DNA of 64,000 nt, taken from the NCBI GenBank assembly GCA_021324255.1, contig JAJPJL010000128.1:26422-90421 (forward strand), written 5' to 3'. Positions within the stretch are counted from its first letter, which is position 1. The number at the start of each line of letters is the position of its first letter. The DNA comes from Bacillota bacterium (GTDB lineage Bacteria > Sysuimicrobiota > Sysuimicrobiia > Sysuimicrobiales > Segetimicrobiaceae). Shown one piece after another: positions 5,445-38,600 of this stretch. Below the pieces are notes generated by a model. It worked only from the letters and a program-made list of their open reading frames with translations. It searched no databases and had not been told where the DNA came from. The position numbers and the translations under genes were made by a program.

Positions 5445-7049
5445 ATGCCGCTGCCCCAGACCCCCGATGACGCGCAGGAAGCGCCGGCGGTGAGTACTCG
5501 ACGCCGGCGCCGTCTGACGCGCTGGCTCGTAGCATCCGCCCTTGCGGCGATCCTGGCGCTCGCCGCGCCGCCGCCCCGGATGGAGCCGCTCGCCTCGGCG
5601 GCGGGCGCTCCGGCGCCCGCGGGCGCGCTCGCCGCGCCCCACCCGGCCGTCACCACCCACTCGATCACGGTCAGGGACACGGTCGTACGGTACACCGCCA
5701 CCGCGGGCGAGGAGCCGTTGACGGACCGCGCGGGCAAGCCCGAGGCCGCCGTCTTCTTCGTCGCCTACGTGAGGCAGGACGCCGCGGACCCCTCGAGGCG
5801 TCCGATCACGTTTGCCTTCAACGGCGGGCCCGGCGCGGCGTCCGTGCTGCTGCACCTCGGCGCGCTCGGGCCCAAGCGGGTGCCGTTGCTGGACCACGGC
5901 GTGCCGCCCACCCCGTCGACCCGCTGGAGCGACAACCCGTACACGTGGCTCACGTTTACGGACCTGGTCTTCGTCGACGCGGTAGGAACGGGGTACAGCC
6001 GCGCGGCGGCTGGCGTGCCGGACTCCACGTTCTTCCAGCCCGACGGCGACGCCCGGTCGTTCGCGCAATTCATTCAGCGGTACATCGCCGAAACGCACCG
6101 GCAAGCGTCGCCCGTGTTTCTCGCGGGCGAGAGCTACGGCGGGACGCGCGCGATCCTCCTCGCGCGGCTCCTGCACGACGCGGGCATCGACGTCAGCGGG
6201 CTGATCCTGATCTCGCCGGTCGTGGATTTCGCAACGCTGAACTCCCAGTACCGCAACCCGGGCCGGAGCATGGATCTGGCGTACGCCCTCGACGTGCCGA
6301 CGTATGCCGCGACCGCCTGGTACCACAAGAAGCTCGGCCCGGAGTTTCCGGATCTCGCCGCCGCCGTGCACGCGGCCGAGCGCTGGGCGGTGACCGAGTA
6401 TCTGCCCGCTCTGGTTCAGGGCGACGCGCTCCCGGCGCCGGCGCAGGAGCGGATCGCCCAGGCGCTGTCGCAATACACCGGCATCGGCGAGGCGGTGCTC
6501 CGCGCGCAACGCCTCCGCCTGCTCCCGACCGCGTTCAGGCGGGAATTGCTGTCCGATCAGCACCTCCAAATCAGCGCGTTGGACGGACGGATCGCCGTTG
6601 ATCCGCGCGCCGCTCACGCCGCGAGCACGACCGGGCTCATGACGCCGCTCGCGGCGATCTTCGAGCGGTACGCAAGCACGGAACTGGGTTACGCACGCCC
6701 AGATCGATACCAGGCCCTGTCCGAGCGGGTCGAGCGCGATTGGACGTGGGGCGTCCGCGGGCCGGCTGATGTCCTCGACGTCACGGGAGATCTGCGCGAC
6801 GCGATGCAGCAGAACCCGGCGATGAAAGTGCTCGTCGCGCTGGGCTACTTCGACCTCACGGTCCCGTACTACGGCACGGAATACGCGCTCAACCGGCTCG
6901 CGCTCGCGCCGGCGCTGGCGGACAATGTGATCCGCCGGTACTACGAGAGCGGGCACATGCTGTACACATCACAGGCGTCGCTGGAGAAGTTTACGGGCGA
7001 CGCGGCGGCCCTGATCGCGAGCGCGACCGCGCCGGCGCACCATCCGTAG
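5445..7049 (+). CDS. S10-family serine carboxypeptidase-like protein (secreted/membrane-anchored)
   Basis: The ATG at 5445 follows GGAG. An N-terminal RRRRLTRWLVASALAAILALAAPPP signal/anchor is present. The GESYGG nucleophile motif and a C-terminal YYESGHMLY His motif are typical of peptidase S10. Confidence 0.75.
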   Translation: MPLPQTPDDAQEAPAVSTRRRRRLTRWLVASALAAILALAAPPPRMEPLASAAGAPAPAGALAAPHPAVTTHSITVRDTVVRYTATAGEEPLTDRAGKPEAAVFFVAYVRQDAADPSRRPITFAFNGGPGAASVLLHLGALGPKRVPLLDHGVPPTPSTRWSDNPYTWLTFTDLVFVDAVGTGYSRAAAGVPDSTFFQPDGDARSFAQFIQRYIAETHRQASPVFLAGESYGGTRAILLARLLHDAGIDVSGLILISPVVDFATLNSQYRNPGRSMDLAYALDVPTYAATAWYHKKLGPEFPDLAAAVHAAERWAVTEYLPALVQGDALPAPAQERIAQALSQYTGIGEAVLRAQRLRLLPTAFRRELLSDQHLQISALDGRIAVDPRAAHAASTTGLMTPLAAIFERYASTELGYARPDRYQALSERVERDWTWGVRGPADVLDVTGDLRDAMQQNPAMKVLVALGYFDLTVPYYGTEYALNRLALAPALADNVIRRYYESGHMLYTSQASLEKFTGDAAALIASATAPAHHP

Positions 7050-17754: not shown

Positions 17755-18198
17755 TTAGGGGAGCGGGCGCGCGTAGCCGCCGGTGTCCGCGGCCTCATCG
17801 GGCACGCGCGCCGGAGGGGCGGCGTCCGGGGTGCGCCGCTCGGTCATCGAGCGCACGGCGTCGTCGACGTCCGGAAAGATGTCGAACACCTCGTGGAGCG
17901 ACAGCGCGGAGAAGACCTCGCGCATCGCCTGCGACGTAAAGACCAGCGCCAGATCGACATCCATGATACGGCACCGGTCCCGGATCCCCATGAGCACGTT
18001 CAACGCCGTGCTATCGAGGTACGTCACGCGCGACAGATCGATCACGAGCGGCAGGCGATCGCGCAACGCCTGAGTGAGGACGTCCTGCGGGACGTAGATA
18101 TTGCTGACGTCGATTTCGCCCTGCACGCGCACCAGGTTGACGTGCTCCAGCCGGACCATCTGGCACCACAGCGACTCAGCGCGGCGATCCGTCACCAT
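17755..18198 (-). CDS. STAS-domain protein (anti-sigma-factor antagonist SpoIIAA-like)
   Basis: The ATG at 18198 follows GGGAGGGGCGCC. The STAS core reads VRVQGEIDVSNIYVPQDVLTQALRDRLPLVIDLSRVTYLDSTALNVLMGIRDRCRIMDVDLALVFTSQAMREVF. The candidate phospho-Ser context is DST. Confidence 0.75.
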   Translation of the reverse strand: MVTDRRAESLWCQMVRLEHVNLVRVQGEIDVSNIYVPQDVLTQALRDRLPLVIDLSRVTYLDSTALNVLMGIRDRCRIMDVDLALVFTSQAMREVFSALSLHEVFDIFPDVDDAVRSMTERRTPDAAPPARVPDEAADTGGYARPLP

Positions 18199-18300: not shown

Positions 18301-19041
18301 TCATCCGGCGGCGGCGGGCCCGCGCGCGCGCCCGAACGCGACGCGGGCGAACGTCGCGGTGATGCGCACGCTCGCCGCGAGCGTGCCGCGCAGCGTGCCC
18401 GATACCTTGGACCTCCCGCCCGCGCGGCGGCGGTGGTCCACCGGCACCTCCAGGATGCGGAGCCCCAACGCCGCCGCGCGCATCTGCATCTCGAGGTTCC
18501 AGCCGTACGTCGGCTCCCGCATCCCGAGCCGCTCCAACGCGCCGCGGCGAATGGCGCGGAACGGGCACATGTCGCTGTAGCGCACGCCGTACCGCAGGCG
18601 CACGAGGATGCCGGCGAGGCGCGCCGCGAGCACCTGCGAGCGGCCCATGCTCCCGGCCTCCCGGCGGCCGCGAAGGCGCGAGCCGATGACGAAATCCTGG
18701 TCCCCCGCGAGGATCGGCGCCACGAGCCGGTCCATGAGTTCGGGGCGGTCGCTGCCGTCGCCGTCGAGAAACACGATGACGGCGCACCGCGGGTCCACGG
18801 CGCGGACACCCGCGGCGCAGGCCCGGCCGTAGCCGCGCTGCCGCTCACGCACGACCCGCGCCCCGGCCGTTCGCGCCTGCTCGGCCGTGGCGTCGTCGCT
18901 CCCGTTGTCCACCACGATCACCTCGTCGGCGATCCCCCGCGGGACCGCCCCGACAACCCGCGCGATGGTGTCGGCCTCGTTCAGCGCGGGAATGACCACG
19001 GACACCCAGGCGCCGTGACGCTCCGCCCGCGGACCCGTCAT
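18301..19041 (-). CDS. family 2 glycosyltransferase (Dpm1-like), 'transferase 2, rSAM/selenodomain-associated' type
   Basis: This is the C-terminal 246 codons of the listed 1044-aa ORF. The protein reads VSVVIPALNEADTIARVV...VIVVDNGSDDATAEQAR...FLDGDGSD (DxD). Its start overlaps the epimerase stop by 4 nt. Confidence 0.8.
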   Translation of the reverse strand: MTGPRAERHGAWVSVVIPALNEADTIARVVGAVPRGIADEVIVVDNGSDDATAEQARTAGARVVRERQRGYGRACAAGVRAVDPRCAVIVFLDGDGSDRPELMDRLVAPILAGDQDFVIGSRLRGRREAGSMGRSQVLAARLAGILVRLRYGVRYSDMCPFRAIRRGALERLGMREPTYGWNLEMQMRAAALGLRILEVPVDHRRRAGGRSKVSGTLRGTLAASVRITATFARVAFGRARGPAAAG

Positions 19042-20213
19042 GCGTCGCCCGTGGAGACCGGATCCGCGCGGCCGGGCCCGGCCCCGGCCACACGGTGCAC
19101 GATCCCCTTGGCGCCGAGGATCGCCTCGGCCGCGGCGAAGTAGTCGCGCACGTCGGCCTGCCGCCGGACCCATGCCAGATACCGCTCGAGGCCGGCGGGG
19201 AGACCGGTGCGCGGGGTAAAGCCCGCGGCGCGAGCCCGCGAGATGTCCGCGGTGAGGTGCCGGATCTCGCCCGGGCGGAACTCCCCGCGCAGGACCGGCG
19301 GGATCCGGCGGCCGAGCGCGCCGGCGAGCGCCTCGTAGAGGTCGTGGATGGCGGTCGCCGTCCCGCTGCCGACGTTGACCGGCACCCCGTCCCACGCCGA
19401 GGTCGTGGCGGCGAGCAGGTTGGCCTCGGCGATATCCTCCACGAAACAAAAGTCGCGCGTCTGCGCGCCGTCCTCGTAGATCACGGCGGGACGGCCGTTG
19501 AGCAGGCGCGTGCAGAAGATCGCGATGACCCCGGTGTACGGGTTGAACAGCGACTGCCGGGGCCCGTAGGTGCACGAGTACCGCAGGGCGACCGCGGGGA
19601 TGCCGGTCTGCTCGGCCCACGACAGGACGAGGCGTTCCTGCGCCACCTTGCTGATGGCATAGGGGGTCGCGCCGCACAACGGCGCGTCCTCGCCCGTCGG
19701 CACCGAGACCGTCCGCCCGCGGCAGCGCGGACAGTGGACCGTGAAGTCGCCGGCCCGCAACTGCGCCACCGGCCGCACCGGGGGATAGACCGTCCCATGC
19801 ACCGGGCAGGCGACCGCGCCCTCGGCGTACACCACCTGGGAGGACGCCACGATGACCTTGCGGACCGGCAACCGTTCGTCCCGGATCAGCTCCAAAAGCA
19901 GCGCCGTGCCGACGACGTTGACGTCGGCGTACTTCGCGATCTCCGGCATGAACCCGCCGTACGCCGCCTGGTGAAACACCACGTCGATGTCGCGGAGCGC
20001 CGCCAGCACGAGCGCGCGGTCCCGGATGTCTCCCTCCACGAACTCGGCGGCATCCGGCACCCACGCGGGCCGGCCGTGCCGGTGGGTCTGCGGCTCGAGA
20101 CGATCGAGGACGCGAACGCGCCACCCGTCTTGCAGCAGCCGGTCGACGATGTGCGACCCGATCAACCCCGCGCCGCCCGTGACGAGCGCGCGCCGCCCCA
20201 CCCGTTCCCCCAT
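19038..20213 (-). CDS. NAD-dependent epimerase/dehydratase (extended SDR)
   Basis: The Rossmann motif VTGGAGLIGSHIV is present. The catalytic YxxxK reads TPYAISK. Confidence 0.85.
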   Translation of the reverse strand: MGERVGRRALVTGGAGLIGSHIVDRLLQDGWRVRVLDRLEPQTHRHGRPAWVPDAAEFVEGDIRDRALVLAALRDIDVVFHQAAYGGFMPEIAKYADVNVVGTALLLELIRDERLPVRKVIVASSQVVYAEGAVACPVHGTVYPPVRPVAQLRAGDFTVHCPRCRGRTVSVPTGEDAPLCGATPYAISKVAQERLVLSWAEQTGIPAVALRYSCTYGPRQSLFNPYTGVIAIFCTRLLNGRPAVIYEDGAQTRDFCFVEDIAEANLLAATTSAWDGVPVNVGSGTATAIHDLYEALAGALGRRIPPVLRGEFRPGEIRHLTADISRARAAGFTPRTGLPAGLERYLAWVRRQADVRDYFAAAEAILGAKGIVHRVAGAGPGRADPVSTGDA

Positions 20214-21617
20214 TCACGTCTCCCTTCGAAGCACCGGCGATCCCGGGCGCCGGCGGTGTGCGGCCCGCAGCGCGCCGCGCCGCAGGCGCCCCCGGATCTC
20301 CGCCCCGAATCGCTCCGCGAGCGCCAAGCCCGCCGTCGGGCCATAGAGCGCGATATCGAACGCCAGCATCTCGTCGTTGATGCCGAACCACGGCCGGTAC
20401 CACAACGCCGAGAAGAGCCACAGGGCTGCGCCGGTCATGTAGAGGAGCGCGATCCGCGGCGTGAAACAGGCGAGCGCCACGAGCCATCCGAAGTACCAGA
20501 GGTAGTGCGTCGACAGGAGCACGAGGAACGCGGCGGCGACCGTGGCGCCGTAGCCGAGGTCGCCGAGCGCCGTCCGGCGCTCGGTGCGCCAGACACGATA
20601 CGCGAGCAGGAACAGCATGAGCAGCGCCGCGCCGGCATACGCCGCGACGGGCGCGGCCACGCCTGCCAGCCGGGCCAGCGTCAGGCCGAGGAACCGGTCG
20701 CCGGTGACGATGCCTTCCTCCGCGGCGTAGCCCGGCAGAAACCCGATCACCCCGGTCCCGACGCCGAGATACGGCAGATACCCGGCCGCGACGGTCGCCG
20801 CCAGCGCCGCCGGCATCTTCCATGTGCCGCGCCGGTAAAATGCGAGCACGAGGAGGGCGGGATACAGTTTCACCAGCGTGGCGCAGCCGAGCGCGATACC
20901 GGTGAGGCTCTCCCGGCGGCGCAGGTGCGCCAGCACCGCCACGAGGATGAAGGTGATCGCCGCGGCGTCGATGTGACCGTCCCCCGCGTACTGCCACAGG
21001 ACCAACGGATGCCAGGCGTACAGCAAGACGCGCTCCCGCGGCAGGCCGGCCAGGCCGAGCGTGAGGCACAACAGCCACACGGTCCCGCCCTCGAACGCGA
21101 CCACCGCCGCCTTCATCGCCGTCACCGTCTGGCTGACCCGCGTCACCGCGAGGAAGATCGCCTGCGCCGCCGGCGGGTAGATCGTGTGCGCGTAGTCCCG
21201 CCGGCTGACGTGCGGGTAGATCGCCGCGTCGCGCAGCCCGGCGAGCGCCGGATCCGCCGGCACGTACCGGTATGGATTGACGCCGGCGCCCTGCACGCGC
21301 CCGTCCCAAATGTACCGGTAGATGTCCGCGGAAAACTTCGGCGGGCTCAGAACAAGCGGGATGCGGCACAGGAGCGCGACGAGCAGGATCACGGTGAGGC
21401 CGCCTCTGGCGACCCGCCCGGTGAGGACCATCCACGCCGCGCCGCCGAACAACAGCGTCTGTGCGAGCGCCAGGGTCCGCACGGCGAAGATATCGGGGAT
21501 GTGCGCGCGCTCGCCGTAGACGTACGACGCCACCGTGAGCGCGCCGAGACCCGCGAGCACCGCGGTCCCGGCGGCCGGCCGCACCCCGTTACCGCGGAAG
21601 GCCGGCGCGATCGCCAC
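20214..21617 (-). CDS. polytopic membrane glycosyltransferase-like protein (DUF2029/GT87-like, GT-C fold candidate)
   Basis: There are about 11 predicted TM helices and an Arg-rich cytoplasmic tail. The stop abuts the epimerase start. The GTG start at 21617 overlaps the upstream gene by 29 nt; an alternative GTG lies at 21584. Confidence 0.55.
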   Translation of the reverse strand: MAIAPAFRGNGVRPAAGTAVLAGLGALTVASYVYGERAHIPDIFAVRTLALAQTLLFGGAAWMVLTGRVARGGLTVILLVALLCRIPLVLSPPKFSADIYRYIWDGRVQGAGVNPYRYVPADPALAGLRDAAIYPHVSRRDYAHTIYPPAAQAIFLAVTRVSQTVTAMKAAVVAFEGGTVWLLCLTLGLAGLPRERVLLYAWHPLVLWQYAGDGHIDAAAITFILVAVLAHLRRRESLTGIALGCATLVKLYPALLVLAFYRRGTWKMPAALAATVAAGYLPYLGVGTGVIGFLPGYAAEEGIVTGDRFLGLTLARLAGVAAPVAAYAGAALLMLFLLAYRVWRTERRTALGDLGYGATVAAAFLVLLSTHYLWYFGWLVALACFTPRIALLYMTGAALWLFSALWYRPWFGINDEMLAFDIALYGPTAGLALAERFGAEIRGRLRRGALRAAHRRRPGSPVLRRET

Positions 21618-22404
21618 GACGCTCGCCGGTCACGGATGGCGGCGCCCAGATGCGTTCCCGCGCGTGCGCGAGCAGCTGCGAGAGATACCGGCGGGTGTGG
21701 GGTGCCGGAGATCCCCGGCCCCCGTGCCCGTCGAAGCACTCCCGGCACAGGCGGCGCAGGCTCGGCGCATCGTCGACGTCATACCACCTCGGCAGGACCT
21801 CGACCCGCACGCCGGCCTCGGCGGCGCGCGCGAGCGTTTGCGCGAATACGGCCTCCGTCCCCCACGCGATGCCGGCAAACAGCCGCGGGTCCGGCGCCGT
21901 CATGCCGATCAGGTAGTAGCCGCCGTCGTCCGCGGGACCGATGACCACGCAGTCGGGATCGCGCGCCAGCAGCCCCGCCGCTTCCGTGAACACCGCCGGG
22001 GACAGGGTCGGGCTGTCGGAGCCGACCAGGCAAAGGGCGGCGTACCCGGCGTCCCGCAAGTCCGCCGCCGCGCCATACAATCGCTCGCCGAGCGTGCCGC
22101 CGCGCTGGAGAACCCGATGGAACTCGGGGGGCACGAGCGCGTCGAATACCGCCTCGCTCCCGGCCGGTGTGTACACCACCGCCCCCTCGCATGCCCCGGC
22201 GGCGCACGCCGCCGTGATGGCGGCTGCGGTATCGCGAAGAAAGCACGCGTGGAGCGCGGCGGCCTCGGCCGGCGATAGCGGCGGCGTCAGTCGGGTCTTG
22301 ACGCGCCCGGGGAGCGGCGCTTTGGTCATGATCCCGATCGCACACCGGCCGGGGTGGGACGACCCCGGGCGACCCGCGGGGCGGCGCCGCATGCCGCTTG
22401 TCAT
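21589..22404 (-). CDS. DUF2064 / CofC-MobA-like nucleotidyltransferase-fold protein ('transferase 1, rSAM/selenodomain-associated' type)
   Basis: The conserved N-terminus reads AIGIMTKAPLPGRVKTRL, followed later by LVGSDSPTLSP and DDGGYYLIG. The start ATG overlaps the cupin stop (ATGA). Confidence 0.75.
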   Translation of the reverse strand: MTSGMRRRPAGRPGSSHPGRCAIGIMTKAPLPGRVKTRLTPPLSPAEAAALHACFLRDTAAAITAACAAGACEGAVVYTPAGSEAVFDALVPPEFHRVLQRGGTLGERLYGAAADLRDAGYAALCLVGSDSPTLSPAVFTEAAGLLARDPDCVVIGPADDGGYYLIGMTAPDPRLFAGIAWGTEAVFAQTLARAAEAGVRVEVLPRWYDVDDAPSLRRLCRECFDGHGGRGSPAPHTRRYLSQLLAHARERIWAPPSVTGERRGDRAGLPR

Positions 22405-22817
22405 TTGACCACGGTCGTCTCGTCGGCGCCCTTGGGAATCAACTCGGCCGCCGAGATGCGGGCGGGGCTCGCGCTCCGGTTGATGAGGGCGTGCACGTCC
22501 CCGGGCACCTCGAGGAAGCTCTCGCCGGTCTTGATGACGCGTTCGCCGCCGCCGCGCTGCAGCACGAGCTGGCCGGACACGACGGTCACCACCACGGGGC
22601 CGCCGTGCACGTGCCGCGGCGTCGCGCTGCCGGGCGGGAAATCCACGACGAAGTCGTAGAGATCGTAGTCGCCGGCCGTCACGGACACGGGGAACGCGGC
22701 CACGGTCACCGTCCGGGGCGACGCGCCCGGAGCGGCGGCCCGCACGGTCTCGATCACGGAACCGGCGAGCAACGCGCCCAGCGCCGCCGCCAGCACATAC
22801 CATCGCCGGACTGGCAT
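22401..22817 (-). CDS. secreted cupin-domain protein
   Basis: A signal peptide (MPVRRWYVLAAALGALLAGSVIETVRA) is present. The cupin motifs read PGSATPRHVHGGPVVVTVVSGQL and GESFLEVPGDVHAL. Confidence 0.65.
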   Translation of the reverse strand: MPVRRWYVLAAALGALLAGSVIETVRAAAPGASPRTVTVAAFPVSVTAGDYDLYDFVVDFPPGSATPRHVHGGPVVVTVVSGQLVLQRGGGERVIKTGESFLEVPGDVHALINRSASPARISAAELIPKGADETTVVK

Positions 22818-22874
22818 CTCGCTCCTCCTCTCGCACGTCCCGCGCGTTGCCGTGCGGCCGGGCGCGGCCGGCGC

Positions 22875-23939
22875 TTAGCGGGCGCCCTCGCGGGCCATCA
22901 CGACCGTCGTGCAGGAACTGCTCAGCTTCGGCAGGTCGCGCGCGCCGGCGGATCGCACCGCGAGCCGTATCCGGTCGCCGCGCACGATCGGGCAGTACAT
23001 GTCGGGGGCATCCAGCGCACCCTGCAACCGCCGGCGCCCGGCGCACCCGCCGTGACAGGCCGCGCGGTGCTCGCACGCTTGACAGGCCTCGGGGAGCGCG
23101 CGCGCCTGTGCGAACGGCTCGGTGTTCACGATGTCGCGCCCCAGGCGCAGGCCCTCGCGGAGCGGCTCGCCGGGCCCCGGCCAGTAGACGCACGGCTGTG
23201 TCGTGCCGCGCGGGGTGACCCGCACCGTGCTCACGCCGCATCCGCCCGCCGGCGCCGGGAGCCCGGCCATGGCGCGCACCAACGGCTCGCCGATCGCGAT
23301 GACGTCCGTCTCCGCAAACAGCGCCCGAAACCCGTCCCAGTACTCCTCGTACGTCAGCGCATACGCGTCGGAGCGCACGGCTTGGTACACATTCACCCGC
23401 AGGGGCGCACGGAACTTGGCGGCGACGCGCGCCACCTCCGCGAGGCGGCGATAGTTGGACTTCATCATCACCGCGACGATGGTCACGGGCACGCCGGCGC
23501 GCACGCAGCGCGCCGCCTGCTCGTGGATCAGGGCCCAGTTGCCGGCGCCCCGCTGCGCGTCCTGTTCGTCCGCCGTCGGATAATCGAGCGAGAACTCGAC
23601 GTCGTGAAAGGCGCGCAGCTCCGCGTCCGAGAGCACGGCCACGCTGTAGCCGTTTGAGGTGATCGTCAGTTTGACCGGCTGAGCGCGCAGGTACGCGAGG
23701 ATGGCCCTGAAGTCGGGGTGCAGCCCGTTCTCGCCCGTGCCCAAGTTGACCGACTGTACGGGGAGCCGCGCCATCACGGCCCGGACCTGATCCAGCGTGA
23801 GCCGGTCCACGCGCGCCGGATCCCGGTAGCAGAATGCGCACGCCAAGTTGCACTCGTTCGTCAGGCCGAGTCCCAGCGCCACCCCGGGCGGGGCCGTGCG
23901 CGCCTCCGATGCCGGCGCGGGGGCGCGGGTGTCGGACAT
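22875..23939 (-). CDS. radical SAM enzyme with Cys-rich C-terminal (SPASM/selenodomain-like) domain
   Basis: The ATG at 23939 follows GGAGG. The radical SAM cluster motif CNLACAFC (CxxxCxxC) is present. The C-terminal Cys cluster reads CQACEHRAACHGGCAG...MYCP. There is no in-frame TGA, and the gene ends with TAA. Confidence 0.75.
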   Translation of the reverse strand: MSDTRAPAPASEARTAPPGVALGLGLTNECNLACAFCYRDPARVDRLTLDQVRAVMARLPVQSVNLGTGENGLHPDFRAILAYLRAQPVKLTITSNGYSVAVLSDAELRAFHDVEFSLDYPTADEQDAQRGAGNWALIHEQAARCVRAGVPVTIVAVMMKSNYRRLAEVARVAAKFRAPLRVNVYQAVRSDAYALTYEEYWDGFRALFAETDVIAIGEPLVRAMAGLPAPAGGCGVSTVRVTPRGTTQPCVYWPGPGEPLREGLRLGRDIVNTEPFAQARALPEACQACEHRAACHGGCAGRRRLQGALDAPDMYCPIVRGDRIRLAVRSAGARDLPKLSSSCTTVVMAREGAR

Positions 23940-24093
23940 CACACGCCTCCGTTCTCGCGGGCCCGGGCACGGGGCCTCGCCGGCACGTGCGTGTAGCGCG
24001 CGAGCGCCGAAACCCCGGCGCGCATGCCCAGCGCCTGTTCGCATGCCACCACGCGCGCGTCCCCCGCGCGCCCCACCGTGCGACGCTCCGCGG

Positions 24094-24729
24094 TCACGAC
24101 AAGAGCCTCAGCACGCGCCCCCACGCCGTGTCCCGCGCCCGATCCGCATGCCGCAGCAAGATCGCGTCGATCCCCAGGCTGCGACCCGGCCGGGAGAGCA
24201 TGAACAGGAGCTGGATGACGATCAGGAACACGTATGTCCAGGGCCACTCGTACGGGTCGCGGTACAGACCCAACCACAGGTTCAGCGCCGCCAGGAGCCC
24301 GAGCACCGCGCCGAGCCGGCTGAACAGCCCGACAATGAGCAAGACCGCGATGAGGACTTCCCCGAGGTAGACTTGCGGGGCAAACACGTAGAAGTGCGGT
24401 TGCACCACGTGTTTGATGAAGTCCCGATGCCCGCCGAACGCCGCATACTGCGCCATCTGGCCAACCCAAAAGCGGAGCCCGCCGGACCCGTCCGGACGAT
24501 CGGTGTACGTCGGCGGGAGCTTCCACAGCGTCTGCGTCCACCACATCGTGCCCACGGCGAAGCGCGCGACCCACGTCCAAAATCGCCGGCCGGAGCGCTG
24601 ATCGGGATCGCGGCGCCAATTGGCCCAGGCCGCGATCACGCTCACGATGACGAGAATCCAGAACACGCCCGTGGTCCACCGTGGCTGCGTCAGGAATCCG
24701 ACCGCGTCGGCGAACGGCGTGGTCCGCAC
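24094..24729 (-). CDS. DoxX-family membrane protein
   Basis: Four TM helices and Trp-rich loops give a DoxX/DoxD-like topology. The start is 13 nt downstream of the permease stop. Confidence 0.65.
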   Translation of the reverse strand: MRTTPFADAVGFLTQPRWTTGVFWILVIVSVIAAWANWRRDPDQRSGRRFWTWVARFAVGTMWWTQTLWKLPPTYTDRPDGSGGLRFWVGQMAQYAAFGGHRDFIKHVVQPHFYVFAPQVYLGEVLIAVLLIVGLFSRLGAVLGLLAALNLWLGLYRDPYEWPWTYVFLIVIQLLFMLSRPGRSLGIDAILLRHADRARDTAWGRVLRLLS

Positions 24730-24741
24730 GGATGCCCGGCC

Positions 24742-25824
24742 TCAGAACCGGAGGAGCTGGGCGGCGACCCCGGCGACCAGCCCGAGACACGCCACCGACG
24801 CCGCGGTCAGGGCCAAGACCCGGACCGGCAGCACACGCCCCATCATCACGAGCGAGGGCAGGCTCACCGGGGCGAGCGTGGTCAACAGGACCGCCGCCCC
24901 GCCCGGGCCGAGCCCAAAGGACATCAGCGTCTGAACGATGGGAACCTCCCCGGCCGTCGGGATGACAAACACCGTGCCGGCGACGGCCAGCAGCGGCAGC
25001 ACGAGAGCGCTATGCCCGATCGCGGGGGTCACCGCGGGGAACATCCACCCCCGCACCGCCCCGAGCGCGAGGACGACGATCACGTATTCGGGAACGAGCC
25101 CCGAGCAGAGCTGCCACAGGGCCCGCCCCCAGCGGCGCACCAGCGACCGGGCATCGTAGGCCTCGGGCGCCCGTCCGGCCGGCGTCGCGGCCGGCGGCGT
25201 CACGGCCACGGCCCGCTCGGCGAGATACGCGGCGCCCAGGACGAGCACGACGCCGGCGGCGACGCGGAGCGCGACCCAACGCCACCCGAGCACGAACCCC
25301 ATGAAAATCATGGTCGCGGGATTGAGGGTGGGATTGCCGAGCCAGTACGCGACGGTGGCGCCGGGGGATGCGCGGCTGGCCCGGAGTCCGACCGCGACCG
25401 GCGCGGCGCAGCAGGTGCACATCATCGACGGCACCGACGCGCCGCCGGCGAGCACCGTACTCAGCCACCCCGCCTTGCCGAGCGCCCGCGCCGGCCATTC
25501 GCGCGGCAGCAGGACCTGCACGGCCGAGCCCACCAGCAGGCCGAGCACCATCGCCTGCCAGATGGCGCCGAAGTACGCGACCGTGAACGACCACGCCGCC
25601 GGCCATCCGACCGCCGGGGGCGCCGCTCCCGAGCCGGTGATGATCGAGGGGCCGATGCTGTGCCGCGCGATGGCGGTGAACGTTTTGTGAACGTACGGGC
25701 TCCACTTGACGTAGTACAAGCCCGCAACGGTCATGATGAAGAACAGAGCGATGGCCCACGGCATCAGGCGCATGCCCGCCGCCGGGATGCCCTCGTCCCG
25801 TTCAACAGCCACCGACTGGCCCAC
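24742..25824 (-). CDS. DUF318/ArsP-like permease with Cys-rich TM motif
   Basis: The GTG start follows GAGGTGACGCAC. It is a polytopic membrane protein. An MMCTCCAAP motif sits in the position of the CxC motif of ArsP/YraQ-type permeases. Confidence 0.65.
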   Translation of the reverse strand: MGQSVAVERDEGIPAAGMRLMPWAIALFFIMTVAGLYYVKWSPYVHKTFTAIARHSIGPSIITGSGAAPPAVGWPAAWSFTVAYFGAIWQAMVLGLLVGSAVQVLLPREWPARALGKAGWLSTVLAGGASVPSMMCTCCAAPVAVGLRASRASPGATVAYWLGNPTLNPATMIFMGFVLGWRWVALRVAAGVVLVLGAAYLAERAVAVTPPAATPAGRAPEAYDARSLVRRWGRALWQLCSGLVPEYVIVVLALGAVRGWMFPAVTPAIGHSALVLPLLAVAGTVFVIPTAGEVPIVQTLMSFGLGPGGAAVLLTTLAPVSLPSLVMMGRVLPVRVLALTAASVACLGLVAGVAAQLLRF

Positions 25825-26034: not shown

Positions 26035-27816
26035 TCAATCGCGCCGTGCAAGGCGGACGTAATACGGCGTCGCACCGACACGGCGCCACCCCCGGGGAAC
26101 GTGGCCCGGCGGGACGTCCTCGGTGACGATGGCCCTGACGCCGGCCGACGCGAGCGCGCGGAGCGTCCGGCGCTGCGCGCCGGGGGGCGCTGTCCAAAAG
26201 GCCCGCACCGCCTCGTCGGGCACCTCGGCGACCACGCGCACTCGAGCCAGCCTCGCCCAGTAGTCGGGGAACGCCGTGCCGATCACCGCCACGGCGTCGC
26301 CCCCCCGGACCCCCATGGCGCGCAGGCCGGCGGCGACCTGCGCCGGCGCAGGCTGCGCCGGGGCGGCAATGCTGCGGAGCGACTCGAGACCGCGGCTCAG
26401 GAGCATGACCAGCGCGACCGTCACGAAGGCGCCCGCCACCGCGCGCACACCCGCGATGGTTCGCCCCCCTGCGGGGAGCCGCACCGCAGATAGCAGGCCC
26501 GCCCAGAGCAACACCATGAACAAGGCGACAAAGCGAGGCTCGACGTAGACGCAGATCAGCCCGGCCAGCCCGAGGCAGGCGAGCAGCAGGATCCCCCACA
26601 CGCGGGCCAGGCTCCGGACGAACCCCCGCGCCGATCCGCTCACCACCGCCCACCAGCACAGGGTAAGCATGACGAGGGTCGCGGCCCCATTGGTGACCAG
26701 CGCGATATGCGAGAGCCTCGTGAGGTTGACGGCGATCGTCGCGGCCACCTGGCCGGGCACGAAGCACGGTTCGATCCCGTCGTACCAATACGCGGGCGCG
26801 TACCACAGCGGATACGTGGTGCGAAAGGGCCCGGCAAACTCGTACACCGCGGGCGCGGCGGCGATGCGGCGGACCGGGTGCCTCGGCGCGCCGCAGGCGG
26901 GCGGTCCGCCTCGCCAGTGCACGTAGGGCACGCCGTCGACGTGGTAGGCGTAATTGAGGACCGCCGTGTCTCCCGCCGTCAGATGGCCCTCGTGCACGGA
27001 CAGCGCGACGATGAACGGCGCGGCGATCGCGACAAACACCGCGATGCCGAGCAACGCGGCGCGCTTCGCCGCGGGCTCGTGCGACACGGCCCACAGCGCC
27101 CCGAGGAGCACGACGGCCAGGGGCAGGATGAGCGCCCGGCTCAAGTAGCCCACAGCCAGCACGGCCCCGAGCGCGGGCAGGCGCCACGCGTCGGGTTTCA
27201 GGCCCTCGGGCCGGACCAACAAGGCCGCCGCAGCGTAGACGAGCGCGGCCGTCAGCAGGTCGGGCGCGACGACGGCGACGCCGGTGGCCACGAGCGATGC
27301 GGAGATGAACACCGGATACCCGATCGCAAACCAGGCCCACCGCGGCAGCGGCGCGAGGCCGTCGGCGCCGGGATGCCGCGCGTCCCGCTCGCTCCGCGCC
27401 AGCAGCGTGCGCAGGAAGGCGTCGAAGGAGAACAGCGCGGCCGCGTAGATCGCGAAGTTGACCGCGTGCACCACCGGGAACTCCCAGAAGAGACCCGGGC
27501 GCGCCGCGCGCAGGACGCCGCCGAGGAGCACGCCGTAGAGCGGGCTCCACAAGCCGTTCAGGGCGGTGTGCCAGTCGCCCCGCCAGAAGGCGTCGCCCAT
27601 GTCCAGGTAGGAGATGCCGTCCGGATTCATCGCGTTGCGCGACGCGACGGCGTCGAGGAATCCCAGGACCAGCCCCAGGGCAAGCAACAGCCGGCGCAGC
27701 GCCGTGGCGCGGGTCCGGGCCAGCGGGATGACCGGCGCGTCGGCGGCGGACTGCGGTCGCGGGATCTCCGCCCGGACGAGCGTGCCCCGGGTCGACCGCC
27801 CGTGTCGTCGCGCCGT
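26035..27816 (-). CDS. GT-C fold membrane glycosyltransferase (PMT/ArnT-like, family 39/83 candidate)
   Basis: It has about 11 TM helices; the N-terminal TM (LRRLLLALGLVLGFLDAV) is followed by an ISYLDMGDAFW loop. The C-terminal soluble domain is about 150 aa. The start is uncertain. I favour the GTG at 27816 over the ORF start at 28047, because the conserved upstream motif at 27905-27945 would otherwise be intragenic. Confidence 0.55.
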   Translation of the reverse strand, partial: TARRHGRSTRGTLVRAEIPRPQSAADAPVIPLARTRATALRRLLLALGLVLGFLDAVASRNAMNPDGISYLDMGDAFWRGDWHTALNGLWSPLYGVLLGGVLRAARPGLFWEFPVVHAVNFAIYAAALFSFDAFLRTLLARSERDARHPGADGLAPLPRWAWFAIGYPVFISASLVATGVAVVAPDLLTAALVYAAAALLVRPEGLKPDAWRLPALGAVLAVGYLSRALILPLAVVLLGALWAVSHEPAAKRAALLGIAVFVAIAAPFIVALSVHEGHLTAGDTAVLNYAYHVDGVPYVHWRGGPPACGAPRHPVRRIAAAPAVYEFAGPFRTTYPLWYAPAYWYDGIEPCFVPGQVAATIAVNLTRLSHIALVTNGAATLVMLTLCWWAVVSGSARGFVRSLARVWGILLLACLGLAGLICVYVEPRFVALFMVLLWAGLLSAVRLPAGGRTIAGVRAVAGAFVTVALVMLLSRGLESLRSIAAPAQPAPAQVAAGLRAMGVRGGDAVAVIGTAFPDYWARLARVRVVAEVPDEAVRAFWTAPPGAQRRTLRALASAGVRAIVTEDVPPGHVPRGWRRVGATPYYVRLARRD

Positions 27817-27904
27817 CACCGCTCGTTCGGATGCGTCATGGTGCACGAGACGGGAATCGTCCCTCCGGGGAGTCTCCGCTGCAATGTCGTGGCGCAGTGG
27901 CACT

Positions 27905-35659: not shown

Positions 35660-35698
35660 CTGCAGACCTTCTTCGGACAGTATCTGCCGCAACTGTCC

Positions 35699-38600
35699 GT
35701 GGCGGCGGTGACGCCGATCGTCATCTTCGCCTTCATCGCGTGGTGGGACGTCCCCGCGGCGGCCGTGATGCTGGTGTTTGCGGTTGCGGGCCTCGCGGTG
35801 CCATCGGCCGTTCACCGCTGGGCCTCGGCCGCATCGCACGCGCAGGACACCTCGGCCCGAGCGTTCAGCGCGGAGTTCTTGGATGCGCTGCAGGGGCTCG
35901 GCACGCTGAAGGCGTTCGGCCAGAGCGCCGCGTACGGCCGGCTGCTCGGCCAGCGCGCCAGGACGCTCGCCCACGCCATGATCCGCGTGCTCGCCATCAG
36001 CCTGATCACGCGCGGGATCACCGACGTGGCCATCGCGCTCGGCGCGGGCGGCGCGCTCGCCGTCGGCGCGTACCGGGTCTCACACGGCTTCATGACGCTG
36101 CCCTCCCTGCTCGTCGTCCTCATGGCAGGCACCGAGGTCTTCCGGCCGCTGCGGGACCTTCGTACCGTCATGCATCAGGGGCTGACGGGTCAAGCCGCCG
36201 CGATGGGCATCAAGAATCTCCTCGATGCGGGCCCGCCGCTCGAGGCCCGCGGCGGCGAGCGGCCCGCCGCGCTTCAGCCGTCCATCGCGTTCGAGAACGT
36301 CCACTTCTCGTATCCGGGCGGCCGGCGGGCTGCGCTGGACGGCCTGTCATTCGACATCGCCGCGGGCGAGCGGATCGGCATCGTCGGGATGAGCGGCGCC
36401 GGGAAATCCTCGATCGCGCGTCTGCTGATGCGGCTCTACGATCCGCAGGCCGGCGCCGTCCGGATCGGGGGGCGAAATCTTCGCGACATCGATCCGGAGG
36501 TCGTGCGGGCGCACATCGCCGTCGTGCAGCAAGACACGTACCTGTTCCACGGCACCATCGAGGATAATCTGCGCCTCGGCCGGCCGGACGCCACCGCGGC
36601 CGACTTGGAGGCGGCCGCGCGGGCGGCGAACGCCCACGAATTTATCGCGGCGCTGCCGGATGGCTATGCGAGCCGCATCGGAGAACGCGGCGCGAAGCTG
36701 TCCGGCGGACAGCGCCAGCGTTTAGCCATCGCACGGGCGCTGCTCCGCAACGCGCCGATCCTCATCCTGGACGAGGCCCTCTCGTCGGTCGACGCGGAGA
36801 ATGAGGCCGTTATCCAGGAGGCGCTCGACCGGCTCATGGTGGGCCGGACCACGCTCATCCTGGCGCACCGCCTCTCCAGCGTCATCGGTGCCGATCGCAT
36901 CGTCGTGATCGACGCCGGCCGCGTCGTGGAGAGCGGTCGCCACGAAACGCTGATGGGGCGGGACGGCGCGTATCGCCGGCTCATGGGCGAGCAAGCACAC
37001 GAGCGCGGCGAGGTCGCCGAACCGGCGCGGAGCGAGAACGGAGCGCCGGCACCGGACGCGCTGGGGCGCCCCGGCGGCGGGGGGGCAGCCGGGGAGCCGG
37101 ATGCGATCCTCCGCGCCGACCGCCTCGGACTCGGGCGCACGGTGTCCGCGCTGATGCGCTTCGTCCGGCCGCAGCGGCTTCGGCTCGCCCTCACGGTGTC
37201 GCTGGCGTTCGGCCGCACGATCGCGTACATCGGGGTCGCCATCGCCGGCGCCCTGATTGTCGCCGCCATCCGCCGCCACGCACCGTACGGCCCGTATCTC
37301 GTGGTGCTTGCCATCGTCGCCCCGCTCGCTGGTATTCTCCACTGGATCGAATCGTGGCTGGCCCACGATGTGGCGTACCGGCTGCTCGTCGACATGCGCA
37401 TCGCCCTGTATCAAAAACTGGACAGCCTTGCGCCCGCGTACCTGCTACGCCGCCGCTCCGGCGACCTGGTGGGGCTTGCGACGCAGGACATCGAGACCAT
37501 CGAGTACTTCTTCGCGCACACGATCGCCCCGGTGACGGTGGCCGCCGTGATCCCGGCCGCGGTGCTTGCCGTGCTTGCGGCCGTCGCATGGCCGACCGCC
37601 GCGGCGCTCGCGCCGTTCCTCGTGCACGCGCTGTGGCAGCCCCTGTTCGTCCGGCGGCGCATCGACGAGATCGGAGGACGGGTGCGTGAAGGGCTCGGCC
37701 GCCTCACGGCGCACGTGACAGACACGATCCAGGGGTTATCGGAGCTCGTCGCGTTCCAGGCCGTCGGCAGGCGCCGCGAGGAGTTTCTTACCGCGCTGCG
37801 GGCCTATAACGCCGTCCGCTTGCGGTTTCTGGGCGACCTATCGTGGCAGACCGCACAACTGGAGATGGTCACCGGGCTCGGAGGCCTCGCCGTCGCGCTG
37901 ACCGGCGGCCTGCTGGCCGTGCGGGGAAGGCTCGACCCAGGCATGCTGCCGCTGTTGACGCTGCTCGCGGTCTCGGCGTTTCTGCCGATCGCCGAGATCG
38001 CGTCCGTGGGGCGTCAACTGGCCGACACATTTGCGTCGACGCGCCGGCTACAGGCGGTCCACGCCGAACCGATCGCCGTCACGGACGGGCCCGCAACGCC
38101 CGCACTCCCCTCATCCCACGGCTCCTCGATCCGATTCGACCGCGTCACGTTTGCCTACCCGGAGACGGCCCGCCCGGCCCTCACGTCCGTTACGCTCGAG
38201 GTGCCGGCGGGCGCCACGGTGGCCCTGGTCGGGCCGTCCGGCGCGGGCAAGACCACGATGGCGAACTTGCTATTGCGGTTCTGGGACCCGCGGGATGGCG
38301 CCATCACGCTCGACGGCCTTGATCTGCGCCACTACCAACTCGACCATCTCCGCCGCCGGATCGCGCTGGTGGCCGAACACACCTACCTATTCAATCAAAC
38401 CCTGCGTGCCAACGTGCGGCTCGCCCGACCCGAGGCCACCGACCGCGAGATCGCGCTGGCGGTCGAGCGCGCCGCGCTGAGTGAGTTCGTGGCATCCCTG
38501 CCCGACGGCCTGGACACACCGGTCGGGGAGCACGGGATGCAGCTCTCGGGGGGACAGCGTCAGCGCGTCGCCATCGCCCGCGCGTTTCTCAAAAACGCCC

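What the first reader, a model, noticed from the sequence alone, without database searches (positions are those of the whole stretch)
18301..25824. Orphan 'rSAM/selenodomain-associated' cassette embedded in an eight-gene envelope-glycosylation/redox array
One minus-strand array reads: DUF318/ArsP-like permease (MMCTCCAAP motif), DoxX, radical SAM with Cys-rich C-terminus (CNLACAFC ... CQACEHRAACHGGCAG ... MYCP), secreted cupin, DUF2064 CofC/MobA-like nucleotidyltransferase, polytopic DUF2029-like glycosyltransferase, NAD epimerase, GT2. The rSAM + DUF2064 + GT2 trio is the co-occurrence defined as the rSAM/Cys-rich 'selenodomain' protein with its two associated transferases (TIGR04167/04282/04283-type), for which no substrate or product is known. 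Here it is tightly coupled (ATGA/GTGA overlaps at 19038-19041 and 22401-22404, abutting stop/start at 20213/20214). It also carries unusual extra members (secreted cupin, a GT-C-like membrane protein, a sugar epimerase, DoxX and a Cys-motif permease). That composition suggests a lipid- or nucleotide-linked sugar being modified by a radical enzyme and exported or installed in the envelope. The radical SAM protein has no in-frame TGA, so this copy is the Cys rather than the Sec variant.
Basis: partly seen in the sequence, partly recalled or inferred. Interest (0 to 1): 0.7.

Follow-up and report, generated by a model that had tools for sequence, protein, structure and literature searches.

The report
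Radical-SAM-linked lipid-sugar envelope glycosylation cassette

Summary
The eight minus-strand genes, their motifs and their overlapping junctions are as described. The proposed identity is only one-third right. The DUF2064 protein passes TIGR04282 (179 bits, cut-off 134). The radical SAM fails TIGR04167/ArsS (27 vs 300) and is a full SPASM enzyme. The GT2 fails TIGR04283 (48 vs 182) and resembles polyprenyl-phosphate sugar synthases (DPMS, ArnC, AglJ). That trio also has a known product now: ArsS makes the arsenosugar precursor.

This SPASM radical SAM is 74-80% identical across Acidobacteriota, Methylomirabilis, Binatia and Verrucomicrobiia. In about 70 of 80 genome loci it lies beside DUF2064, a GT87-type GT-C and the GT2. 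A methyltransferase, a DoxX protein and a secreted protein usually join them.

In the window the methyltransferase has been cut to a 52-codon remnant by a 705-bp in-frame deletion.

The Zn-ribbon SDR, DUF2064 and GT2 form a tight trio in metagenomes (41/43 and 48/51 loci), usually without this radical SAM.

The glycosylation half has the same parts list as M. tuberculosis methylthioxylose capping (MtxS/MtxT). I could not compare the proteins directly.

Best reading: a lipid-linked rare-sugar pathway with a variable radical-SAM tailoring unit. The sugar is unknown.

The parts
24742..25773 (-). ArsP_1/DUF318-family permease with the MMCTCCAAP motif, about 10 TM. The start is ATG 25773; an alternative GTG lies at 25824.
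   Evidence: Pfam PF03773 64.5 bits (cut-off 32.3). It sits far below the equivalog cut-offs for SO_0444 and SaoE. It is conserved next to DoxD only in the window's lineage (L085, L086, L100, L104) and is absent from the acidobacterial loci.
24094..24729 (-). DoxD/DoxX-family membrane protein
   Evidence: PF04173 33.6 bits (cut-off 22.7). A DoxX-family gene is present in 65 acidobacterial loci and is weakly homologous to this one (about 28% identity). DoxX also occurs in the Miltoncostaea cassette.
23939..24097 (-). Remnant of the cassette's class-I methyltransferase: an in-frame fusion of codons 1-11 with roughly the last 41 codons. A 705-bp deletion has removed the whole SAM-binding fold.
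   Evidence: In L085 (radical SAM 92% identical) an intact 287-aa methyltransferase fills this position. The deleted form also occurs in L001-L004, which come from several samples.
22875..23939 (-). Radical SAM/SPASM enzyme ('family A'), 354 aa
22401..22817 (-). Secreted cupin (Sec signal peptide, RBS GAGGAGGAG upstream)
   Evidence: PF07883 53.4 bits. Start and RBS. Conserved after the radical SAM in L085, L086, L100 and L104. In Acidobacteria the slot is taken by an unrelated secreted protein of about 260 aa.
21589..22404 (-). DUF2064 / TIGR04282 protein (CofC/MobA-like GT-A fold; putative sugar-phosphate nucleotidyltransferase)
   Evidence: TIGR04282 179.3 bits (cut-off 134). CofC 32 bits. 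PDB 3cgx E 7e-22. Co-located with the radical SAM in 77 of 84 loci and with the SDR in 41 of 43 loci.
20214..21617 (-). GT87-type GT-C polytopic glycosyltransferase. The start is GTG 21617; an alternative lies at 21584.
   Evidence: PF09594 33.4 bits (cut-off 25). PF26314 MptA_B family is on record for it. Found in 71 of 84 loci. 46% identical to the Methylobacterium 'glycosyltransferase 87 family protein'.
19038..20213 (-). NDP-sugar epimerase-type extended SDR with an insertion of about 35 aa carrying C-x2-H...C-x2-C (Zn-ribbon-like)
   Evidence: PF01370 162 bits. Closest solved relatives are UDP-sugar 4-epimerases, with the match split around the insertion. The insertion ligands are conserved in the Nonomuraea homologue. 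Flanked by DUF2064 and GT2 in metagenome loci.
18301..19041 (-). Soluble GT2 of the polyprenyl-phosphate sugar synthase type
   Evidence: PF00535 85.4 bits. AglJ 120, PpgS 64, Dol-P-hexose transferase 63, TIGR04283 47.7 vs 182. PDB DPMS 5mlz and ArnC align over the whole catalytic domain. 60% identical to the Methylobacterium cassette GT2.
26035..27819 (-). Probable accessory member: a polytopic membrane protein of about 600 aa (about 10-12 TM, acidic NPDGISYLDMGD loop after TM1, soluble C-terminal domain). It may be a second GT-C-like enzyme.
   Evidence: No Pfam, NCBIfam or PDB hit. Hydropathy. A homologue lies next to the module in L085, L086, L100, L101 and L104 even where gene order differs.

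Best explanation
The array is one copy of a widespread, uncharacterised envelope-glycosylation cassette. It has two functional halves.

Half 1 (DUF2064, SDR, GT2, GT87) is a lipid-carrier glycosylation line. The proposed steps are:
1. The CofC/MobA-like DUF2064 protein activates a sugar phosphate as a nucleotide sugar.
2. The Zn-ribbon SDR epimerises it.
3. The DPMS/ArnC-like GT2 transfers the sugar to polyprenyl phosphate on the cytoplasmic face.
4. After flipping, the GT87-type GT-C transfers it to an envelope acceptor on the outer face.

This is the logic and parts list of M. tuberculosis methylthioxylose capping. There MtxS (Rv0539) makes decaprenyl-P-MTX, MtxT (Rv0541c) transfers it, and the sugar derives from the SAM by-product 5'-methylthioadenosine.

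Half 2 (SPASM radical SAM, its methyltransferase, DoxX, a secreted protein) is an add-on. It supplies or tailors the unusual sugar. My preferred guess is that it creates or modifies the 5-position substituent of a SAM-derived 5'-deoxy-nucleoside or pentose, by analogy with ArsM+ArsS feeding TIGR04282/04283 in arsenosugar synthesis. DoxX, and in other lineages MsrP/sulfite-oxidase-type Mo enzymes, would provide periplasmic redox chemistry on that substituent.

In this genome the methyltransferase has been deleted, so any methylation step is lost.

Shown: the family assignments, the co-localisation statistics, the deletion, and the SPASM fold. Inferred: the order of steps, lipid-carrier use, the nature of the sugar, and the radical SAM's substrate.
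For: Family tests:
- DUF2064 passes TIGR04282. The GT2 best matches AglJ, PpgS and Dol-P-hexose transferase, and matches DPMS and ArnC over the full catalytic domain.
- GT87 passes Pfam. The SDR matches NDP-sugar epimerases.

Linkage:
- Radical SAM A co-locates with DUF2064, GT87 and GT2 in 77, 71 and 71 of 84 loci. Intergenic gaps are -49 to 87 nt.
- An SDR-centred census gives DUF2064 in 41 of 43 loci and GT2 in 48 of 51.
- The same DUF2064-GT87-GT2 module (43%, 46% and 60% identity) sits in one operon in cultured Methylobacterium, with a different radical SAM.
- Gene fusions GT87::GT2 and DUF2064::Nudix in Miltoncostaea tie the GT-C to the GT2 and tie DUF2064 to nucleoside-diphosphate chemistry.
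- Nonomuraea has GT2+SDR / GT87+DUF2064 and no radical SAM.

Literature:
- MtxS and MtxT roles (PMC8780516; PMC12088412).
- MTX uses a dec-P donor, a GT-C and 5'-methylthioadenosine (PMC11127046).
- ArsS adenosylates DMAs(III).

Nucleoside hint: a 37%-identical full-length relative of the radical SAM is flanked by an MTAP-like phosphorylase and a 5'-deoxyadenosine/MTA-deaminase-like hydrolase.

Redox partners recur: DoxX, an MsrQ/MsrP-like pair, and a membrane sulfite-oxidase-family enzyme in at least 31 loci.

Methyltransferase deletion.
Against: - No biochemical activity is known for any DUF2064 protein.
- I could not compare the window proteins directly with Rv0539, Rv0540 or Rv0541c. That Rv0540 is a DUF2064 protein, and that GalE3 and Pnp belong to the Mtb cluster, is my recollection of Angala et al. 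2017, which is not held.
- The window contains no nucleoside phosphorylase or MTAP gene.
- Most SDR-DUF2064-GT2 loci lack both a detectable GT87 homologue and this radical SAM, so the halves separate and the GT-C step is not universal.
- SPASM enzymes are mostly peptide or protein maturases. The top structural neighbours are anSME and SuiB.
- Other distant relatives of the radical SAM sit in unrelated contexts: SelD, a guanylate-kinase-like gene, and unknowns.
- The methyltransferase is CmoM-like and lacks the ArsM cysteines.
Confidence: 0.5

Rival explanations
1. One reading: a Cys-variant member of the rSAM/selenodomain trio (TIGR04167 + TIGR04282 + TIGR04283), that is, an arsenosugar-type pathway. 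The radical SAM would adenosylate a methylated metalloid. The two transferases would process the resulting nucleoside, and the ArsP-family permease would move the organometalloid.
For: - DUF2064 passes TIGR04282.
- The intact cassette in relatives has methyltransferase + radical SAM + DUF2064 + GT2, which parallels ArsM + ArsS + TIGR04282/04283.
- An ArsP_1 permease with a Cys cluster is present.
- A 48%-identical relative of the radical SAM lies next to a true SelD, and the Miltoncostaea cassette lies beside selD/selA.
Against: - The radical SAM scores 27.4 vs 300 on TIGR04167, matches only the N-terminal core, and carries a SPASM domain instead.
- The GT2 scores 47.7 vs 182 on TIGR04283.
- The methyltransferase is not ArsM-like: 33 bits, with no conserved Cys triad.
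- ArsP is restricted to one lineage.
- GT87 and the SDR are not part of the defined trio.
Confidence: 0.12
2. A protein or peptide maturation system. The SPASM radical SAM would modify a peptide or the co-encoded secreted protein (the cupin here, the 260-aa protein in Acidobacteria) before export. The GT2/GT-C pair would then glycosylate that protein in the periplasm, like a mycofactocin or PMT-style system.
For: - A secreted protein gene always follows the radical SAM.
- Mycofactocin also uses a GT2 (MftF).
Against: - No conserved small ORF exists. Gaps inside the cassette run from -49 to 87 nt, and neither a gene nor 400 nt of sequence upstream is conserved.
- The radical SAM is 74-80% identical across phyla, yet the secreted partner is replaced by an unrelated protein.
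- No RRE/MftB-like gene is present.
- MftC equivalog: 79 vs 265.
- The window remnant ORF is a deleted methyltransferase, not a precursor.
Confidence: 0.15
3. The two halves are functionally independent neighbours. The SDR-DUF2064-GT2(-GT87) module would make an ordinary envelope sugar. The radical SAM/methyltransferase/DoxX unit would do something unrelated and merely be co-inherited.
For: The SDR-DUF2064-GT2 trio occurs without radical SAM A in 14 of 17 long metagenome loci and in Nonomuraea. Relatives of radical SAM A occur without the module.
Against: - Radical SAM A at 74% identity or more sits next to the module in about 90% of 80 loci from several phyla, in at least three different gene orders.
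- At least three radical SAM types unrelated to family A also attach to the same module: type B, an Rv1681-like enzyme, and by definition ArsS.
- Repeated independent recruitment of radical SAM enzymes argues for a functional link.
Confidence: 0.15

Closest known systems
M. tuberculosis methylthioxylose (MTX) capping of lipoarabinomannan: MtxS (Rv0539, GT2), MtxT (Rv0541c, GT-C) and neighbouring genes
   Same: A small soluble GT2 makes a polyprenyl-phosphate-linked rare pentose. A polytopic GT-C installs it outside the membrane. The sugar derives from a SAM by-product nucleoside (PMC8780516, PMC12088412, PMC11127046). From my recollection of Angala 2017, the model also includes a nucleotidyl-activation step and a C-3 epimerisation. 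These would correspond to DUF2064 and the SDR here. An actinomycete (Nonomuraea) carries homologues of all four window proteins together.
   Different: Here a SPASM radical SAM, a methyltransferase (deleted in this copy), DoxX, a secreted cupin and an ArsP-type permease are attached. No MTA phosphorylase is nearby. The hosts are Gram-negative-type soil phyla without lipoarabinomannan. Direct sequence comparison with the Mtb proteins could not be made.
Arsenosugar cassette ArsM + ArsS (TIGR04167) + TIGR04282 + TIGR04283
   Same: The composition is methyltransferase + radical SAM + DUF2064 + GT2. The DUF2064 protein is a true TIGR04282 member. A DoxX gene also accompanies a related DUF2064/GT2 cassette with an Rv1681-like radical SAM in Miltoncostaea.
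   Different: The radical SAM and the GT2 both fail the family cut-offs by wide margins. The radical SAM has two auxiliary-cluster (SPASM) sites instead of the Cys/Sec-rich tail. The methyltransferase is not ArsM-like. A GT-C and an SDR are added.
Three-component extracytoplasmic pentofuranose addition systems and ArnC/ArnT-, GtrB/GtrC-, PpgS/Rv3779-type pairs
   Same: A polyprenyl-phosphate sugar synthase is paired with a GT-C transferase, often with an epimerase. The pair modifies an envelope glycan after export (PMC11127046).
   Different: Those systems start from PRPP or a common UDP-sugar. They contain no DUF2064 and no radical SAM.
SPASM radical SAM enzymes (anSME, SuiB, PqqE, MftC, BlsE)
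   Different: No equivalog model is reached, the best being 79 vs 265. There is an extra invariant Cys in a conserved C-terminal tail (RDLPKLSSSCTTVV). No peptide partner is present, and the genomic context is glycosylation.

Membership tests
TIGR04167 (ArsS, rSAM/selenodomain protein) | Whole-protein HMM score at or above the curated cut-off of 300 | tested here: not met
   27.4 bits. Only residues 22-135 match model positions 10-133.
TIGR04167 (ArsS, rSAM/selenodomain protein) | Cys/Sec-rich C-terminal 'selenodomain' rather than another accessory domain | tested here: not met
   The C-terminus is a canonical SPASM domain: TIGR04085 32.4 vs 27, and the 7-Cys motif C234...C250...C286-x2-C-x5-C-x3-C...C316.
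TIGR04282 (DUF2064, 'transferase 1') | HMM score at or above the cut-off of 134 | tested here: met
   179.3 bits over model positions 3-186 of 189. Pfam PF09837 101.7 bits.
TIGR04283 ('transferase 2', MftF-like GT2) | HMM score at or above the cut-off of 182 | tested here: not met
   47.7 bits, covering only model positions 1-94. The best hits are AglJ (120), GpgS (67.4, N-terminal region only), PpgS and Dol-P-hexose transferase.
Radical SAM / SPASM subfamily | CX3CX2C motif plus a SPASM domain above cut-off, and a SPASM-type fold | tested here: met
Mycofactocin system (MftC maturase) | MftC equivalog score at or above 265, with MftA precursor and MftB partner genes | tested here: not met
   79.3 bits. 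No small conserved ORF and no RRE gene in or beside the cassette.
GT87 / GT-C (Pfam PF09594, formerly DUF2029) | Pfam gathering score of 25 and polytopic topology | tested here: met
   33.4 bits over profile positions 2-235 of 237. PF26314 is on record. At least 7 hydrophobic segments.
Polyprenyl-phosphate sugar synthase class of GT2 (DPMS/ArnC/MtxS type) | Full-length catalytic-domain similarity to characterised members; lipid-phosphate acceptor | tested here: inconclusive
   DPMS 5mlz and ArnC align over residues 12-216. No equivalog cut-off is reached. The acceptor is not testable in silico.
M. tuberculosis MTX pathway | Orthology of the GT2, DUF2064 and GT-C to Rv0539, Rv0540 and Rv0541c | not testable with these tools
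   No Mtb sequences could be reached. The primary paper PMC5357196 is not held. Only class-level matches and a homologous actinomycete cluster are available.
M. tuberculosis MTX pathway | Clustered MTA phosphorylase supplying the pentose-1-phosphate | tested here: not met
   No PNP/MTAP-family gene among the roughly 40 window genes I scanned (neighbours); about ten ORFs beyond position 47,000 were not scanned. An MTAP-like gene occurs only beside a 37%-identical relative of the radical SAM.
ArsP (organoarsenical efflux permease) | Membership of PF03773, plus equivalence to a characterised transporter | tested here: inconclusive
   PF03773 64.5 vs 32.3 is met. SO_0444 scores 38.6 vs 300 and SaoE 36.3 vs 325, both not met. 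Substrate unknown.

The most novel reading that the evidence does not exclude
The SPASM radical SAM, with its methyltransferase, is a new enzyme that makes a 5'-substituted 5'-deoxyadenosine (thio-, seleno- or arseno-), or otherwise rewrites C5 of a pentose. The DUF2064-SDR-GT2-GT-C line then turns this into a lipid-linked rare pentofuranose that decorates the envelope of Acidobacteriota and other dominant soil phyla. DoxX or MsrP-like enzymes keep the heteroatom reduced. On this reading the MTX-type modification, so far known only from mycobacterial lipoarabinomannan, would be a general and ancient bacterial surface chemistry. DUF2064+GT2 would be its universal processing module, shared with arsenosugar synthesis.
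Probability: 0.15. Interest if true: 0.8.

Novelty: new variant of a known kind. Interest (0 to 1): 0.55.

Why it matters
The cassette is present in hundreds of genomes of the most abundant soil bacteria. Its radical SAM is conserved at 74-80% identity across phyla, which points to a strongly constrained and still unknown reaction.

No paper in the searched library mentions DUF2064. A recent study states it is unclear whether MTX-type addition exists outside lipoarabinomannan (PMC11127046).

These loci make that question testable, because cultured carriers exist (Methylobacterium plasmids). They also correct an annotation habit: TIGR04282 hits are being named 'arsenosugar biosynthesis' in contexts where ArsS is absent.

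Tried and rejected
- Direct comparison with Rv0539, Rv0540 and Rv0541c. No route to Mtb sequences exists in these tools. PMC5357196 and PMC5831173 are not held, and literature searches for Rv0540, DUF2064 and galE3 gave nothing useful.
- The 52-codon ORF as a RiPP precursor. Rejected: it is a methyltransferase remnant.
- A conserved precursor peptide in acidobacterial loci. None was found.
- A first AF2 run on a shallow alignment gave a poor C-terminal model (pLDDT 54). It was replaced by a run on a diverse alignment.
- The C-terminal tail of the radical SAM as a self-substrate. Rejected, because C343 is invariant across the whole family and is more likely a cluster ligand.
- ArsM-like nature of the methyltransferase. 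Rejected.
- The promoter/terminator scan was uninformative in this 72% GC DNA.
- The 594-aa membrane protein has no HMM or PDB match.
- Hopanoid (HpnA/HpnB) and heme (NirJ/AhbD) assignments were considered. Scores are far below the cut-offs.

Full report
OBSERVATION

The window has about 70-73% GC, so I called genes by codon-position GC and then by translation and start-site inspection.
- ArsP_1 permease, 24742-25773
- DoxD/DoxX, 24094-24729
- radical SAM, 22875-23939
- signal-peptide cupin, 22401-22817
- DUF2064, 21589-22404
- GT87, 20214-21617
- SDR, 19038-20213
- GT2, 18301-19041

The ATGA overlaps at 19038-19041 and 22401-22404 are real, as is the abutting stop/start at 20213/20214. All quoted motifs are present. 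Pfam places each protein in the stated family. The same DNA occurs in several public assemblies, including MAG GCA_037025125.1.

FAMILY TESTS

Against NCBIfam:
- DUF2064 passes TIGR04282 (179.3 bits, cut-off 134).
- The radical SAM scores 27.4 against TIGR04167 (cut-off 300). It instead passes the SPASM domain model TIGR04085 (32.4 vs 27). Its best equivalog hit is the mycofactocin maturase, at 79 vs 265.
- The GT2 scores 47.7 against TIGR04283 (cut-off 182). It best matches AglJ, PpgS and dolichyl-phosphate hexose transferase.
- In the PDB, the GT2 aligns over its whole catalytic domain with dolichol-phosphate mannose synthase and ArnC.

NCBIfam now names the trio 'arsenosugar biosynthesis'. 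ArsS is known to adenosylate dimethylarsenite to 5'-deoxy-5'-dimethylarsinoyladenosine (PMC13598754). 'No known product' is therefore outdated, and the 'Cys versus Sec variant' remark does not apply.

THE RADICAL SAM

Homologues number in the thousands, and the top 120 are 74-100% identical. The named ones come from Terriglobales and Methylomirabilis. A genome scan found 567 loci, mostly Acidobacteriota plus Binatia and Verrucomicrobiia.

An alignment shows CX3CX2C, the complete 7-Cys SPASM motif and an invariant C-terminal tail. In a diverse alignment reaching down to 28% identity, Cys343 of that tail remains invariant, which suggests a cluster ligand.

At the 50%-cluster level only 149 representatives reach E of 1e-30 or better, so this is a compact family.

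NEIGHBOURHOOD CENSUS, CENTRED ON THE RADICAL SAM

I searched 80 genome loci plus four copies of the window locus with tblastn. DUF2064, GT87 and GT2 lie within 10 kb in 77, 71 and 71 loci.

Clustering all ORFs and scanning representatives gives the acidobacterial consensus. A class-I methyltransferase overlaps the radical SAM start. Convergent to this pair lie a secreted protein of about 260 aa with no known domain, then GT87, DUF2064 (TIGR04282, 148.7 bits), GT2 and DoxX. Median intergenic gaps run from -49 to 87 nt.

Cupin, SDR and ArsP are absent from these loci.

No conserved gene lies upstream of the methyltransferase, and the 400 nt upstream are not conserved either. A dedicated precursor-peptide gene is therefore unlikely.

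THE WINDOW'S OWN LINEAGE, AND A DELETION

Close relatives (radical SAM 92% and 81% identical; L085, L086) carry ArsP-DoxD-methyltransferase-radical SAM-cupin and DUF2064-GT-C-SDR(-GT2), plus a membrane protein of about 600 aa. They do so in two different gene orders, so these accessory genes are conserved within the lineage.

In the window the methyltransferase is missing. Alignment to L085 shows a 705-bp in-frame deletion. It leaves a 52-codon ORF (23939-24097) that fuses codons 1-11 to roughly the last 41 codons, with a short imperfect repeat at the junction. The deleted form is found in several samples. No homologue of the methyltransferase, of the 260-aa protein or of radical SAM type B exists elsewhere in the window.

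THE MODULE IN OTHER ORGANISMS

Searching annotated plasmids with the DUF2064 protein found the following.

Methylobacterium radiotolerans and M. aquaticum, both cultured, carry one operon: MsrQ-like cytochrome b, MsrP-like Mo-oxidoreductase, a hypothetical protein, DUF2064, GT87, a radical SAM, GT2 and an aminotransferase. DUF2064, GT87 and GT2 are 43%, 46% and 60% identical to the window proteins. The radical SAM belongs to a different family, which I call type B.

L026 and L088 carry both type A and type B.

Miltoncostaea oceani carries DoxX, an AhpD-like protein, an Rv1681-like radical SAM, a GT87::GT2 fusion and a DUF2064::Nudix fusion, next to selD/selA.

Nonomuraea carries GT2+SDR divergent from GT87+DUF2064, with no radical SAM within 7 kb. 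Its SDR shares the C-x2-H...C-x2-C insertion.

NEIGHBOURHOOD CENSUS, CENTRED ON THE SDR

In 80 metagenome loci with SDR homologues (62-92% identity):
- DUF2064 is upstream in 41 of 43 loci with enough flank.
- GT2 is downstream in 48 of 51.
- Only 3 of 17 long loci have radical SAM A, and 5 have a detectable GT87 homologue.

The commonest form is methyltransferase-DUF2064-SDR-GT2 followed by a membrane-anchored sulfite-oxidase-family Mo enzyme. That enzyme appears in at least 31 loci.

Taken together, DUF2064+GT2 (with or without the SDR and GT-C) is the core. Radical SAM enzymes of at least four families have been attached to it, and redox partners (DoxX, MsrP-like, sulfite-oxidase-like) recur.

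DISTANT RELATIVES OF RADICAL SAM A
- A 54% relative sits with type B and DUF2064.
- A 48% relative sits next to a true SelD.
- A 37% relative lies between an MTAP-like phosphorylase and a 5'-deoxyadenosine/MTA-deaminase-like hydrolase.
- A 36% relative sits next to a guanylate-kinase-like gene and another radical SAM.
- Two others have uninformative neighbours.

This is suggestive of nucleoside chemistry but is not decisive.

COMPARISON WITH KNOWN SYSTEMS

In M. tuberculosis, MtxS (Rv0539, GT2) forms decaprenyl-P-methylthioxylose. MtxT (Rv0541c, GT-C) transfers it to the mannose caps of lipoarabinomannan (PMC8780516; PMC12088412). The pathway starts from 5'-methylthioadenosine. [quoted passage not shown]

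From my memory of Angala et al. 2017, which is not held, the model runs: MTA, then methylthioribose-1-P, then a nucleotide sugar, then C-3 epimerisation, then the decaprenyl-P sugar, then LAM. Rv0540 and GalE3 are part of the cluster in that account.

The window's DUF2064, SDR, GT2 and GT87 fit those four steps one for one. I could not test orthology directly. The arsenosugar system likewise feeds a 5'-substituted 5'-deoxyadenosine to TIGR04282/04283.

MECHANISM PROPOSED

Half 1 is a nucleotide-activation, epimerisation, lipid-carrier and GT-C line that installs a rare sugar on an envelope acceptor.

Half 2 (SPASM radical SAM, methyltransferase, DoxX, secreted protein) supplies or tailors that sugar. 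It may act at C5 of a SAM-derived pentose.

The window copy has lost the methylation step.

I hold the lipid-carrier glycosylation logic at about 0.5-0.6. I hold the SAM-derived pentose idea at about 0.15-0.3.

Rivals are strict trio membership (refuted on two of three proteins), a peptide or protein maturation system, and functional independence of the two halves.

VERDICT

This is a new variant of a known kind, namely a DUF2064/GT2-based rare-sugar pathway of the MTX or arsenosugar type, carrying a new and highly conserved SPASM radical SAM. The cassette is common, not orphan, and this copy is degenerate in one gene.

Noticed in passing
window 23939-24097 (-): The 52-codon ORF between DoxD and the radical SAM is the in-frame remnant of a 287-aa methyltransferase. 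A 705-bp deletion sits at a short imperfect repeat. The same deleted allele appears in several public samples.
   Followed up: yes
L093 6073-13076 and L094 (Methylobacterium plasmids): Cultured isolates carry the DUF2064-GT87-rSAM-GT2 module in one operon behind an MsrQ/MsrP-like pair and ahead of a PLP aminotransferase. The radical SAM there is a different family (type B, nearest model 'tungsten cofactor oxidoreductase maturase', 143 vs 380).
   Followed up: partly
L095 5064-8227 (Miltoncostaea oceani plasmid): Two natural gene fusions: GT87 N-terminal part::GT2 (651 aa) and DUF2064::Nudix hydrolase (394 aa). They lie beside DoxX, an AhpD-like protein and an Rv1681-like radical SAM, and next to selD/selA.
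   Followed up: partly
L162 8415-13444 and at least 30 similar metagenome loci: A radical-SAM-free form of the module: methyltransferase-DUF2064-Zn-ribbon SDR-GT2, followed by a membrane-anchored sulfite-oxidase-family molybdoenzyme. No detectable GT87 homologue is nearby.
   Followed up: partly
L090 8001-10103; L091 1512-4638: More distant full-length relatives of the radical SAM sit in other contexts. A 48%-identical one lies convergent to a true SelD. A 37%-identical one lies between an MTAP-like nucleoside phosphorylase and a 5'-deoxyadenosine/MTA-deaminase-like amidohydrolase.
   Followed up: partly
window 26035-27819 (-): A 594-aa polytopic protein has no Pfam, NCBIfam or PDB match. It has an acidic loop (NPDGISYLDMGD) after TM1 and a soluble C-terminal domain. 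Homologues accompany the module in five related loci. It may be an unrecognised GT-C.
   Followed up: partly
window 19038-20213 (-), residues ~135-170: The SDR carries an insertion of about 35 residues with C-x2-H...C-x2-C. The same ligands are conserved in a 38%-identical Nonomuraea homologue. It looks like a zinc ribbon specific to this module-linked epimerase subfamily.
   Followed up: partly
window 17755-18198 (-): A STAS-domain (anti-sigma antagonist-like) gene directly follows the GT2. It is conserved at that position in L085 and L100, so it may be a regulator of the array.
   Followed up: no
window 1934-7049 (+): Two tandem trypsin-like (Trypsin_2) peptidase genes are followed by an S10/alpha-beta-hydrolase-type protein. 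They appear unrelated to the finding.
   Followed up: no
window 35660-38881 (+): A 1073-aa fused ABC transporter with two ATPase domains and a transmembrane region, preceded by a 154-aa ORF with no domain hit.
   Followed up: no
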